Program-made: the position numbers | In this document: piece after piece, positions 3,001-6,000 of the stretch | Numbering within the stretch: the stretch's first letter is position 1 | Layout: the number at the start of each line of letters is the position of its first letter | NCBI RefSeq assembly: GCF_003790525.1 | Contig: NZ_CP033635.1 | Strand: one strand, 5' to 3' | DNA: 64,000 bases | Origin: Escherichia coli | Lineage (GTDB): Bacteria; Pseudomonadota; Gammaproteobacteria; Enterobacterales; Enterobacteriaceae

Positions 3001-6000
3001 AAAGTTTGTCCCTTATGAGGCAGACAGCATTACACCATTCGTCGCAAACAGTCCACTAATGTCGTTCTTTTATGAACACCCAGAAGACTATAAACAGTAT
3101 CTGACTCACGAAGGCGAATACAAACCAGAAGCAAGAGCATGGCAAACGGCTAATAATACCTATGGTTTTTCCAACGGTCTTGGCGTCGTGGAGGTGATTA
3201 TTGCTCTGCTGGTTTTGGCTAATCCTGTCAATCGCTGGTTAGGTTTATTGGGTGGGCTGATGGCATTTACCACGCCGCTGGTAACACTCTCATTTTTAAT
3301 CACCACTCCGGAAGCATGGGTACCCGCATTGGGTGATGCTCATCATGGTTTCCCTTATTTATCCGGTGCTGGTCGTCTGGTATTGAAAGATACTCTGATG
3401 CTGGCAGGAGCTGTCATGATAATGGCAGATTCGGCGCGGGACATTCTTAAACAACGCAGTAATGAATCCAGTTCAACGTTAAAAACTGAATATTGATAAT
3501 CCGAACACTGTCTGTTGTTCACTTTTTCAGGCGTCAGGCTTTCCTTGCTAATGGGTGAAGCCTGACGCCATATTACCTGAAACAGGACAATGTAAGGTTC
3601 AATATAACTCCCTTATTAAAACATTTATGTCATCTCAGGTAAAATAAGTGATTAATATCAACCATGTGTTTTTACAGCAAGACAACCACGAACAAACTCA
3701 GGATTAAAATGTTTTACCGATTCGCCAACATAACCCAAATCTAGCGAACTAATTTGCGCCATTTCTTTCTCTGTCAGTGAGAAATCCCAGATAGCAAAAT
3801 TTTCTTCGATACGCTGTTGATGTGTCGATTTCGGAATAACGACCACTCCCCGTTGAATATTCCAACGCAGAATGACTTGAGAAATCGATTTTTGATGGGC
3901 ATCTGCAATACTCTGAAGCAGATTATTTTCAAAGGGTTTATGTCGTCCACCACCTAACGGAGCCCATGCTTCAGGCTGCACGTTATAATACTTCATGGTT
4001 GCCAGCGCCTCTGGTTGGGCAAAATAGGGATGCAACTCGACCTGGTTGACCATCGGTTTAACTCTTACCGTTTCACAAAAGTTCGCCAGAACATGAGGGT
4101 AGAAATTGGAAACCCCAATCGCTTTTAATTTGCCCTCTTCATAGGCATCTTCGAGTGCACGCCACGCACTAAAATAATCGCGCATGGCCTGGTGCAATAA
4201 ATAGAGATCGAAGTATTCTAGCCCCGATTTTTTTAATGATGCTTCAATACCTGCTGCTGCAATATCCTGATTCAACATATCCTGCACCCACAATTTAGAC
4301 GTTATAAATAACTCTTCTCGGGTACATAAACCTTCAGATATGGCTTCACGAACGGCTTCACCGACGGCATCTTCATTACCGTATACCGCTGCAGTGTCGA
4401 TGAGTCGATAACCCGTGCGGATAGCATTCAACACTGACTGTTTACACACGTCTTTATCGGTAACCTGAAAAACACCAAATCCCATCATCGGCATTTTCAG
4501 ATTGTTACTTAATACGGAAAATTCCACTGTCAGTCCCTCCATTAGGTATGAACAATGAGTCTACGTTAAAACGTAACCTCAAATTAGTATGTGGATTTTG
4601 ATATCACTTATGCAAAAAATTCATTAATAATGTAGGACTGAAACCTCTCTATTTTTGGGGCAATGAAGCAGACGCTATCAGTGCTTTTGCCTTGGGACTT
4701 GCTGTTTTTGATACACTTAGGGCCCAGGACATAACGAAAATGTGCGATATGACAAAGAATTAACGGAGTATGTGATGATCAGGCAGAAGATTCTACAGCA
4801 GCTCCTGGAGTGGATTGAGTGCAATCTTGAGCACCCTATTTCAATCGAAGATATCGCACAGAAATCTGGCTACAGCAGACGCAACATCCAGCTTCTGTTC
4901 CGAAATTTCATGCATGTGCCTTTGGGAGAATACATTCGCAAACGAAGGCTTTGTCGTGCCGCCATTCTTGTCCGGCTCTCCGCGAAATCTATGCTTGATA
5001 TTGCACTCTCTTTGCATTTTGATTCACAGCAATCATTCAGCCGAGAATTTAAAAAGTTATTCGGCTGCTCTCCCCGTGAATACCGCCACCGTGATTATTG
5101 GGATCTCGCAAATATCTTCCCTTCTTTTTTAATACGTCAACAGCAAAAGACGGAGTGTAGATTAGTCAACTTTCCTGAGACACCTATTTTTGGCAATTCA
5201 TTTAAATATTATATTGAAGTGTCGAATAAATCACCGGATGAAGAAGTCAAACTGCGACGTCATCATTTAGTCAGATGTATGAAGAATTTTAAGACGGATA
5301 TCTATTTCGTCTCCACGTTCGAACCGTCAACAAAATCGGTCGATTTGCTCACAGTTGAAACTTTTGCCGGTACGGTATGCAAAGAAACCGATTCAGAGAT
5401 GTCGAAAGAGTGGACAATTAACCGAGGACTGTATGCCTCTTTCCGCTATGAAGGTGAGTGGGAGCTCTACCCTGAATGGACGCGAAACCTCTATCTGATG
5501 GAATTACCCGCCAGGAGGTTAGCCAGAATGAACGGCAGTGATATTGAGCGATTTTATTACAATGAAGATTTCGTAGAAAAGGATAGCAATGATGTTGTTT
5601 GCGAAATATTTATCCCTGTTCGTCCGGTTTAGTTATCGCTATATCTAAATGAATTTATAACGAGACTACTGTCAGGCAATTCAATAAATAATGGCGTTGA
5701 AGATGTCAACGCCATTATTGTTTATTAGAATGTTACTTTCATACTCTTAATATTATTTCATCGCCTCCTCGCCCGTTGCCGTATTGGCATCCACCGCGGT
5801 AATGGTCACAGTCACTGGTTTCATTTCATACCCTCCATATGTCAAAGAGTTGAATGTGAATGTGTATGTACCTGGCTTGTTGGTACTAAATGTACGCGTG
5901 ATTTTTCCGCTCACGAAATGGTCATTTTTCGACGGCAGGAATTGATAATCCTTCTCCGTCACTCCTTCCGGAGCCTCAATGTCGACCCACACATTCCCCC

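What the first reader, a model, noticed from the sequence alone, without database searches (positions are those of the whole stretch)
3658..4542. Intact aldo-keto reductase at the position of the K-12 ykgQ remnant
A complete 294-aa AKR lies between rclC and the ykgA-like regulator, paralogous to the AKR at 10572-11423 on the other side of fdeC.
Basis: inference. Interest (0 to 1): 0.2.

Follow-up and report, generated by a model that had tools for sequence, protein, structure and literature searches.

The report
Intact reductase gene, deleted in K-12
This is an ordinary, already-annotated aldo-keto reductase gene that about half of E. coli strains keep intact, and the K-12 pseudogene ykgQ is what remains of it after two internal deletions.

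Summary
The observation and the interpretation both hold. The window is E. coli SMS-3-5. Window 3658-4542 (minus strand) is an uninterrupted aldo-keto reductase (AKR) ORF between rclC and a full-length ykgA. It has Pfam PF00248 (E=5e-43), an intact D-Y-K-H catalytic tetrad and NADPH motif, and a confident predicted TIM barrel (TM 0.90 to PDB 1VP5). The real start is probably the GTG at 4527 (289 aa, strong GGAGG site, the length of most listed orthologues), not the ATG at 4542 (294 aa). K-12 ykgQ (129 bp) encodes the last 41 residues at 95% identity. K-12 lost about 685 bp through two internal deletions (100 bp and 585 bp). That allele is in 2,090 of 5,426 complete E. coli genomes, and the intact gene is in about 2,940. 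Pairwise dN/dS among six intact alleles is 0.04-0.28. The AKR at 10572-11423 is its closest relative among the E. coli AKRs compared (46%), but the split is ancient, not a local duplication. RefSeq already annotates all of this, so novelty is low. One side lead is new. Both paralogues carry the same upstream dyad (ATGAA-N5-TKCATAA, then 20 nt, then CTAAT). That dyad also precedes three AKR lineages in other Proteobacteria, often near one LysR subfamily.

The parts
3658..4527 (-). Aldo-keto reductase CDS (AKR1). It is 289 aa from GTG 4527; the in-frame ATG at 4542 would give 294 aa. In 294-aa numbering the catalytic tetrad is D49, Y54, K83, H117, and GVSNF, NQVE and IPKSTHQQRIEEN are cofactor motifs.
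4535..4540 (-). Shine-Dalgarno sequence GGAGGG, 7 nt upstream of GTG 4527.
   Evidence: conserved in six E. coli alleles
3658..3786 (-). The C-terminal 129 bp, which is the only part K-12 annotates as ykgQ.
3787..3886 (.). Segment missing from K-12 (deletion 1, 100 bp). It is bounded by 9-bp direct repeats TGAGAAATC at 3778-3786 and 3878-3886.
3927..4511 (.). Segment missing from K-12 (deletion 2, about 585 bp), which removes the whole catalytic core. K-12 keeps 3887-3926 and 4512-4542 as further collinear scraps.
4608..4624 (-). Conserved upstream dyad ATGAATTTTTTGCATAA, a T-N11-A type box about 80-97 nt before the GTG. It is a candidate operator or activator site.
4583..4587 (-). Conserved CTAAT 20 nt downstream of the dyad, possibly part of the -10 element. 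It reads CTACT in the K-12-type deletion lineage.
4556..4581 (.). Palindrome TGAGGTTACGTTTTAACGTAGACTCA in the leader. It was found only in E. coli and its function is unknown.
3530..3569 (.). Perfect 12-bp inverted repeat (GGCGTCAGGCTT/AAGCCTGACGCC) between the convergent rclC and AKR genes. It is probably a bidirectional terminator hairpin.
   Evidence: inference for function
4775..5632 (+). Full-length ykgA (AraC HTH plus GyrI-like domain), divergent from the AKR. In K-12 it is truncated by IS3.
10572..11423 (+). It forms an operon-like pair with AKR3 (11450-12439).
10475..10516 (+). AKR2 upstream element: dyad ATGAATTTTGTTCATAA (10475-10491), then 20 nt, then CTAAT (10512-10516). The architecture is the same as upstream of AKR1.
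12470..13363 (-). LysR-family regulator (LysR1), the candidate trans-regulator of the dyad-bearing AKR promoters.
   Evidence: association only

Best explanation
Window 3658-4527 (minus strand) encodes a functional cytoplasmic NADPH-dependent aldo-keto reductase of the DkgA/YtbE/TM1009-like group. It most likely reduces reactive aldehydes or ketones to alcohols: hydride transfer from NADPH, with proton donation by Tyr54 assisted by Asp49, Lys83 and His117. It is a strain-variable E. coli gene. The K-12 pseudogene ykgQ is the same gene after two internal deletions (100 bp between 9-bp direct repeats, and about 585 bp). Those deletions removed the catalytic core and left a stop codon after the fifth codon from the GTG. 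Shown here: the ORF, the family, the intact catalytic and cofactor motifs, the fold, the positional and sequence identity with ykgQ, the deletion junctions, the population frequencies and the purifying selection. Inferred: NADPH dependence, the carbonyl substrate class, and transcription from its own promoter carrying a conserved dyad, possibly under a LysR1-type activator rather than the neighbouring YkgA.
For: The ORF is present and matches Pfam PF00248 at E=4.9e-43. The best solved relatives are AKRs: 1VP5 at E=1.9e-84, plus YtbE, YvgN, trypanosomatid PGF synthases and DkgA. The D49/Y54/K83/H117 tetrad and the GVSNF, NQVE and IPKS....R...N motifs are present, and the tetrad residues are invariant in a 19-sequence alignment. 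The AlphaFold model has pLDDT 91.2 and TM 0.90 to 1VP5. K-12 ykgQ matches the C-terminal 41 aa at 95% identity in the same position. Three collinear scraps in K-12 define the two deletions. A junction-spanning 101-mer is found in 2,090 genomes, and the internal segment in 2,940 of 5,426. Six diverse alleles are all 870 bp and uninterrupted, with pairwise dN/dS of 0.04-0.28. Orthologues at 81-85% identity occur in Klebsiella, Kluyvera, Enterobacter, Salmonella salamae, Vibrio and Marinomonas.
Against: No expression or enzyme data exist for this protein, and no paper on it was found. The simple sigma-70 scan found no promoter in the AKR-ykgA intergenic region. It scores below the NCBIfam cut-offs for DkgA (234 vs 425) and DkgB (164 vs 327), so no specific substrate can be transferred from those enzymes. 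About 39% of E. coli genomes do without it, so it is dispensable.
Confidence: 0.9

Rival explanations
1. The ORF is intact only by chance or recency. It would be a silent gene on the way to becoming a pseudogene, as in K-12.
For: About 39% of genomes carry a dead allele, and no promoter was called by the consensus scan.
Against: dN/dS is 0.04-0.28 among alleles from different lineages, all of identical length with no stops. The tetrad and cofactor motifs are intact. There is a strong SD sequence. An upstream element is conserved across genera.
Confidence: 0.05
2. K-12 shows the ancestral state, and SMS-3-5 gained the AKR by insertion at this site.
For: The region has low G+C (about 42-45%), and the gene sits in unrelated contexts in other genera, which suggests mobility over long time scales.
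Against: K-12 retains three collinear pieces of the coding sequence (the C-terminal 129 bp, 3887-3926, and the first 31 bp) together with the upstream region. One junction lies in a 9-bp direct repeat. This is the signature of deletion from an intact gene, not of an empty site.
Confidence: 0.02
3. The AKR is the regulatory target of the divergently transcribed YkgA (a MarA/SoxS/Rob paralogue with a GyrI-like ligand domain). This would be analogous to YqhC activating yqhD-dkgA.
For: The genes are arranged divergently with a 247-bp intergenic region, conserved in all E. coli alleles inspected. The yqhC-yqhD-dkgA layout is seen in K-12. YkgA's targets were reported as unknown in 2007 (PMC2064960).
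Against: None of the nine non-Escherichia orthologue loci has a ykgA-type gene adjacent. The GyrI-like regulator 3.5 kb away in Salmonella salamae is only 24% identical. No marbox with two or fewer mismatches lies in the intergenic region. ykgA stays intact in strains that have lost the AKR. The conserved upstream element is a dyad, which is not typical of monomeric MarA-type binding.
Confidence: 0.2
4. It is simply another 2,5-diketo-D-gluconate/methylglyoxal reductase, isofunctional with DkgA or DkgB.
For: The best NCBIfam hits are the DkgA and DkgB models, and some sources name relatives 'diketogulonate reductase-like'.
Against: The scores are far below both equivalog cut-offs. Identity to DkgA is only 40% and to DkgB 32%. 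The protein forms its own tight clade.
Confidence: 0.1

Closest known systems
E. coli K-12 pseudogene ykgQ (b4631)
   Same: It has the same chromosomal position between rclC and ykgA, and 39/41 identical residues over the C-terminus. The upstream region and the first 31 bp are also retained in K-12.
   Different: ykgQ lacks about 685 bp, including the whole catalytic core. Reading from the start it stops after VEFSV. Only the last 129 bp are annotated.
Thermotoga maritima TM1009 (PDB 1VP5) and Yersinia pestis putative reductase (PDB 4MHB)
   Same: These are the best sequence and fold matches (E=1.9e-84 and 6.6e-74; TM 0.90 and 0.89). They share the C-terminal tail beyond the barrel.
   Different: Identity is only 47%. 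Both are structural-genomics entries whose entry titles are generic and give no substrate. 4MHB is the orthologue of AKR2 (91%), not of this gene.
E. coli DkgA (YqhE) and DkgB (YafB), annotated as methylglyoxal reductases in the K-12 record
   Same: They belong to the same small (about 275-290 aa) AKR group, share the tetrad and are the best NCBIfam hits.
   Different: Identity is 40% and 32%, below the equivalog cut-offs. The genomic context and upstream element are different.
Bacillus subtilis YtbE / YvgN (PDB 3B3D, 3F7J)
   Same: They give strong sequence matches (E=3e-73 and 1e-67) with about 44-46% identity in the structural alignment, and have the same fold. From my own knowledge, these reduce glyoxal, methylglyoxal and aromatic aldehydes with NADPH.
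   Different: They come from a different phylum. No orthology is implied, and substrate transfer is only a guess.
AKR2 of the same window (10572-11423)
   Same: It is the closest paralogue among the E. coli AKRs compared (46-47%). It has the same upstream dyad, 20-nt spacer and CTAAT architecture.
   Different: It belongs to a separate old clade, is co-transcribed with AKR3, and is present in fewer genomes (1,892 vs about 2,940). In K-12 it was lost through a separate 6.3-kb deletion.

Membership tests
Aldo-keto reductase superfamily (Pfam PF00248) | Profile match above the curated threshold over the whole domain | tested here: met
   147.7 bits against a cut-off of 24, covering profile positions 10-289 of 291
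Aldo-keto reductase superfamily (Pfam PF00248) | Catalytic tetrad Asp-Tyr-Lys-His | tested here: met
   D49, Y54, K83 and H117 are present and invariant in 19 aligned sequences (there numbered D44, Y49, K78, H112 in the 289-aa form)
Aldo-keto reductase superfamily (Pfam PF00248) | (alpha/beta)8 barrel fold | tested here: met
   AlphaFold2 model with pLDDT 91.2 and pTM 0.87. Foldseek gives TM 0.90 to 1VP5, and all top hits are AKRs. This is a prediction, not an experiment.
Aldo-keto reductase superfamily (Pfam PF00248) | NAD(P)H-binding motifs (GxSNF, NQxE, IPKS-x4-R-x3-N) | tested here: met
   GVSNF, NQVE and IPKSTHQQRIEEN were found. That these residues bind the cofactor and its 2'-phosphate comes from my knowledge of AKR1B1-type structures.
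Aldo-keto reductase superfamily (Pfam PF00248) | NAD(P)H-dependent carbonyl reduction | not testable with these tools
   Needs an enzyme assay
DkgA equivalog (NCBIfam NF008598) | Score at or above the curated cut-off of 425 bits | tested here: not met
   233.9 bits; 40% identity to K-12 DkgA
DkgB equivalog (NCBIfam NF008377) | Score at or above the curated cut-off of 327 bits | tested here: not met
   163.5 bits; 32% identity
Orthologue of K-12 ykgQ | Same flanking genes and collinear sequence identity | tested here: met
   Located between rclC and ykgA in both strains. 95% amino-acid identity over the remnant, and flanks about 95% identical in DNA.
LysR-type (T-N11-A box) regulated promoter | Dyad with T-N11-A spacing upstream of the gene | tested here: met
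   ATGAATTTTTTGCAT at 4610-4624 (the first 15 nt of the 4608-4624 match) is conserved at -84 to -87 in six genera. That T-N11-A boxes are typical of LysR-type regulators is from my own knowledge.
LysR-type (T-N11-A box) regulated promoter | A cognate LysR regulator binds the box | not testable with these tools
   Association only. LysR1-type genes lie next to AKR1-type genes in Leclercia, E. ludwigii and K. sichuanensis. However, about 1,000 E. coli genomes keep AKR1 without LysR1.

The most novel reading that the evidence does not exclude
The dyad box ATGAA-N5-T(G/T)CATAA, followed after 19-20 nt by CTAAT, may mark a previously undescribed regulon. In it, one LysR1-type regulator would control several unrelated AKR lineages: AKR1-type, AKR2-AKR3 operons, and AKR3-type alone. 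The regulon would span Gamma- and Alphaproteobacteria. The gene in this finding would be a trans-regulated member whose own neighbour, YkgA, is irrelevant. The K-12 lineage would then have lost the E. coli module piece by piece: ykgQ, ykgP and the 6.3-kb block.
Probability: 0.35. Interest if true: 0.4.

Novelty: already known. Interest (0 to 1): 0.15.

Why it matters
The main result is housekeeping. It explains what the K-12 pseudogene ykgQ once was, and shows that K-12 is the degraded state at this locus. The rclC-ykgR interval in K-12 carries four separate lesions: the ykgQ double deletion, the IS3 insertion and deletion that truncates ykgA and eaeH/fdeC, and the 6.3-kb deletion that leaves ykgP. 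This matters for anyone who uses K-12 as the reference for carbonyl-stress or aldehyde-tolerance work, because roughly half of natural E. coli strains carry one to three extra AKRs and an Old Yellow Enzyme homologue that K-12 lacks. It also flags that a published 'AtoC site in the ykgA-ykgQ intergenic region' lies on a deletion scar. The side lead, a shared cis element upstream of three AKR lineages, would give a handle on how these poorly understood reductases are induced.

Tried and rejected
1. A marbox scan (AYNGCACNNWNNRYYAAAY, up to 2 mismatches) found 21 matches against 18.8 expected, and none in the AKR-ykgA intergenic region. This gives no support for MarA/SoxS/Rob-type control.

2. 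The sigma-70 and terminator consensus scan of 3450-4850 found nothing above shuffled expectation and nothing in the intergenic region.

3. An Rfam scan of 3300-4900 at E<=1 found no RNA family.

4. A PADLOC scan of the AKR and YkgA found no defence-system family.

5. Nine orthologue loci in other genera were inspected for conserved synteny. Every genus has different neighbours, so synteny gives no functional inference.

6. The E. coli palindrome at 4556-4581 was tested as a conserved operator. It is absent in the other genera.

7. I looked for the dyad in LysR-divergent intergenic regions. E. ludwigii has only a variant (ATGAA-N5-CTCAT, read by eye in the sequence printed). Klebsiella and the window's own LysR1 and LysR2 upstream regions have none. 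The LysR link therefore remains unproven.

8. Literature searches for ykgQ, ykgA, and rclC plus aldo-keto reductase found no functional study of the intact gene.

Full report
**Where the window comes from.** Window 3400-4800 is 100% identical to E. coli SMS-3-5 (NC_010498.1, 343642..342242). RefSeq annotates the neighbourhood as rclR, rclA, rclB, rclC, 'aldo/keto reductase', a 'helix-turn-helix domain-containing protein' (ykgA-type), fdeC, two more aldo/keto reductases and two LysR regulators.

**The observation.**
- A 294-codon ORF occupies 3658-4542 on the minus strand.
- It matches Pfam Aldo_ket_red at E=4.9e-43.
- Its best match among solved structures is the AKR 1VP5 at E=1.9e-84.
- The catalytic tetrad is present (D49, Y54, K83, H117 in 294-aa numbering), as are the cofactor motifs GVSNF, NQVE and IPKSTHQQRIEEN.
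- The tetrad residues are invariant in an alignment with 15 orthologues, AKR2, DkgA and DkgB.
- An AlphaFold2 model is confident (pLDDT 91.2) and superposes on 1VP5 with TM 0.90. All the listed Foldseek hits are AKRs.

**One correction: the start codon.** PGAP starts the gene at the GTG at 4527, giving 289 aa. That codon has GGAGGG seven nucleotides upstream, while the ATG at 4542 has no ribosome-binding site. Most of the close orthologues listed are 289 aa. The nine examined begin at the homologous codon, which is ATG in the Vibrio and Marinobacterium examples.

**Relation to K-12 ykgQ.**
- In NC_000913.3, ykgQ (b4631, 317439-317567) lies between ykgA and rclC.
- Its translation matches residues 253-293 of the AKR at 39/41 identities.
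- PGAP calls the same K-12 fragment an incomplete aldo/keto reductase.
- BLASTN of the K-12 interval against the window gives three collinear pieces. The junctions show two deletions in K-12.
- Deletion 1 is 100 bp (window 3787-3886), bounded by the 9-bp direct repeat TGAGAAATC.
- Deletion 2 is about 585 bp (3927-4511).
- K-12 keeps the upstream region, the SD sequence and the first 31 bp. Read from the GTG start, the remnant is VEFSV followed by a stop at junction 2.
- Retained scraps on both sides of each gap show that K-12 is the derived state.

**Population frequencies.**
- A 101-nt probe spanning both junctions is found at 80% coverage or more in 2,090 of 5,426 complete E. coli genomes.
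- The 576-bp segment internal to deletion 2 is found in 2,940 genomes.
- Non-K-12 strains with the deletion allele (STEC276, STO_Bone1B) have the identical junctions, and their ykgA and fdeC are intact. The AKR deletion is therefore independent of the K-12 IS3 event.

**Is the intact gene functional?** Six alleles were compared: SMS-3-5, ST131, O157:H7, O121:H19, O145:H28 and MLI108K3. All are 870 bp without interruptions, and pairwise dN/dS is 0.04-0.28. This indicates purifying selection. No publication on the intact gene was found. A 2007 paper stated that YkgA's function and targets were unidentified (PMC2064960).

**Family placement.** The protein scores below the NCBIfam equivalog cut-offs for DkgA (234 vs 425 bits) and DkgB (164 vs 327 bits). 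Its identities to other proteins are listed here.

| Compared protein | Identity |
|---|---|
| Orthologues in Klebsiella, Vibrio, Marinomonas | 81-85% |
| TM1009 (1VP5) | 47% |
| 4MHB | 47% |
| AKR2 (10572-11423) | 46% |
| DkgA | 40% |
| DkgB | 32% |
| AKR3 (11450-12439) | 26% |

- A neighbour-joining tree puts AKR1 and its orthologues in their own clade, sister to the TM1009/4MHB/AKR2 clade.
- 'Paralogous' is therefore correct, but the duplication is ancient.
- By the 40% and 60% rules of AKR nomenclature (my own knowledge), this would be a separate subfamily at the edge of the DkgA-type family.
- Substrate specificity cannot be assigned. The best guess is NADPH-dependent reduction of small reactive aldehydes or ketones, as reported for DkgA and for YtbE/YvgN (knowledge, not tested).

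**Regulation.**
- The gene is divergent from a full-length ykgA (AraC HTH plus GyrI-like domain). This resembles yqhC-yqhD-dkgA.
- That pairing is confined to Escherichia. In Klebsiella, Kluyvera, Enterobacter, Pseudenterobacter, Salmonella salamae, two Vibrio species, Marinomonas and Marinobacterium, the orthologue sits in nine unrelated contexts.
- No marbox was found in the intergenic region.

**A conserved upstream element.**
- A short element travels with the gene: ATTAATGAATTTTTTGCATAA, with TGCAT at -84 to -87 from the start codon, in E. coli, Klebsiella, Salmonella, Kluyvera and Pseudenterobacter. It is present partially in V. natriegens, and a variant reading TGCAC occurs in Marinomonas.
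- The window's AKR2 has the near-identical perfect dyad TTATGAA-TTTTG-TTCATAA at 10473-10491. The same 20-nt spacer leads to CTAAT.
- I scanned one genome for each of about 100,000 species with ATGAATTNNNTKCATAAN{19,20}CTAAT, which gave 48 matches.
- Fifteen of these have an AKR gene starting within 100 nt downstream, in the same orientation. None of the other 33 has an AKR within 2.5 kb.
- The fifteen comprise six AKR1-type genes, six AKR2(-AKR3)-type genes, and three AKR3-type genes alone. The AKR3-type examples are Rahnella victoriana (82%), Telmatospirillum (65%) and Ensifer (64% identity to AKR3).
- The pattern was derived from enterobacterial AKR1 and AKR2 sequences, so recovery of their orthologues is partly expected. 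The AKR3-only and alphaproteobacterial cases are not.

**A candidate regulator.**
- The dyad has T-N11-A geometry, which is typical of LysR-type boxes (my own knowledge).
- A LysR gene of one subfamily lies next to AKR1-type genes in three genera. These proteins are 52-54% identical to the window's LysR1 at 12470-13363, against 31-35% for the unrelated LysR2.
- In Leclercia the LysR gene is directly divergent from the AKR, with the dyad between them. In E. ludwigii and K. sichuanensis it is nearby.
- In the window, and in L040 (92% identical), the LysR gene lies beside AKR3.
- Against a strict dependence: LysR1 is in 1,894 E. coli genomes, which matches AKR2 (1,892) but not AKR1 (about 2,940).
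- O157:H7 keeps AKR1 although an IS1203-associated deletion removed LysR1.
- The LysR-divergent intergenic regions of Klebsiella and of the window lack the dyad.
- I rate LysR1-type control as a lead, not a finding.

**Verdict.** The feature is an ordinary accessory AKR gene that is already annotated, and the identity of ykgQ as an AKR fragment is already recorded in RefSeq. Interest is low. The only part that goes beyond existing annotation is the shared cis element linking three AKR lineages.

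Noticed in passing
window 10558-16861; ykgP equivalent at 16862-16953: K-12 lacks this 6.3-kb block, which holds AKR2, AKR3, two LysR regulators, an alpha/beta hydrolase and most of an Old Yellow Enzyme-family NADH:flavin oxidoreductase (15811-16953). 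The K-12 pseudogene ykgP (90 bp) is the C-terminal remnant of that flavin oxidoreductase...ELTIPDKLWDQIQASKGTGWFPL(M/I)D. Non-K-12 strains with the ykgQ-type deletion also lack this block.
   Followed up: yes
window 4608-4624 (-) and 10475-10491 (+); loci L040-L074: A shared dyad box ATGAA-N5-T(G/T)CATAA, followed by 20 nt and CTAAT, lies upstream of both AKR1 and AKR2. The same pattern sits directly upstream of AKR genes in 15 of 48 matches across about 100,000 species genomes. These include AKR3-type genes in Ensifer and Telmatospirillum. A LysR1-type regulator often lies nearby.
   Followed up: partly
K-12 NC_000913.3 about 317390-317410; window equivalent 3921-3926 joined to 4512-4526: A published predicted AtoC binding site 'ACTATACGGAAAATTCCACT' in the 'ykgA-ykgQ intergenic region' (PMC3118216) straddles deletion junction 2. 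It consists of AKR coding-sequence scraps, so it exists only in the deletion allele.
   Followed up: partly
window 4583-4587 (-): The CTAAT that is conserved downstream of the dyad reads CTACT in all three deletion-allele strains inspected (K-12, STEC276, STO_Bone1B) and CTAAT in all six intact-allele strains. This could be decay of a promoter element after gene loss, or simply lineage marking.
   Followed up: no
window 4556-4581: A 26-bp palindrome TGAGGTTACGTTTTAACGTAGACTCA lies between the putative promoter and the SD sequence of the AKR. It is conserved in all nine E. coli sequences aligned but absent from orthologue loci in other genera. It could be an Escherichia-specific operator (for YkgA?) or a leader hairpin.
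   Followed up: partly
window 10221-10239 (-): A marbox-like sequence CTTGCACAAAAAGCTAAAT (1 mismatch to the consensus) lies in the fdeC-AKR2 intergenic region. Window-wide counts are not above chance.
   Followed up: no
L075 (E. coli O157:H7 strain 2149) 9001-10835: In O157:H7 an IS1203 element replaces everything from codon 36 or so of AKR2 to the middle of the flavin oxidoreductase gene. This is a third, independent way in which the block has been lost, and AKR1 remains intact.
   Followed up: partly
L040 (NZ_JAATUR010000022.1, labelled E. coli): In this genome an AKR1-type gene (93% identical) is directly divergent from the AKR2-AKR3 pair, with no ykgA or fdeC between them. This hints that the three AKRs may once have formed one cluster.
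   Followed up: no
L009 (E. coli O145:H28) upstream of the AKR start: There is a 9-bp tandem duplication (TGCCTAATG) immediately upstream of the SD region of the AKR in O145:H28.
   Followed up: no
L063 (MAG labelled Collinsella sp., 2.4-kb contig): This contig carries an AKR2-AKR3 segment 98-100% identical in protein to the E. coli genes, including the identical upstream element. It is probably a mis-binned Escherichia contig.
   Followed up: no
window 1-5700: The rcl-AKR-ykgA stretch has low G+C (about 37-45%) compared with fdeC and the AKR2-AKR3 block (about 50-55%).
   Followed up: no
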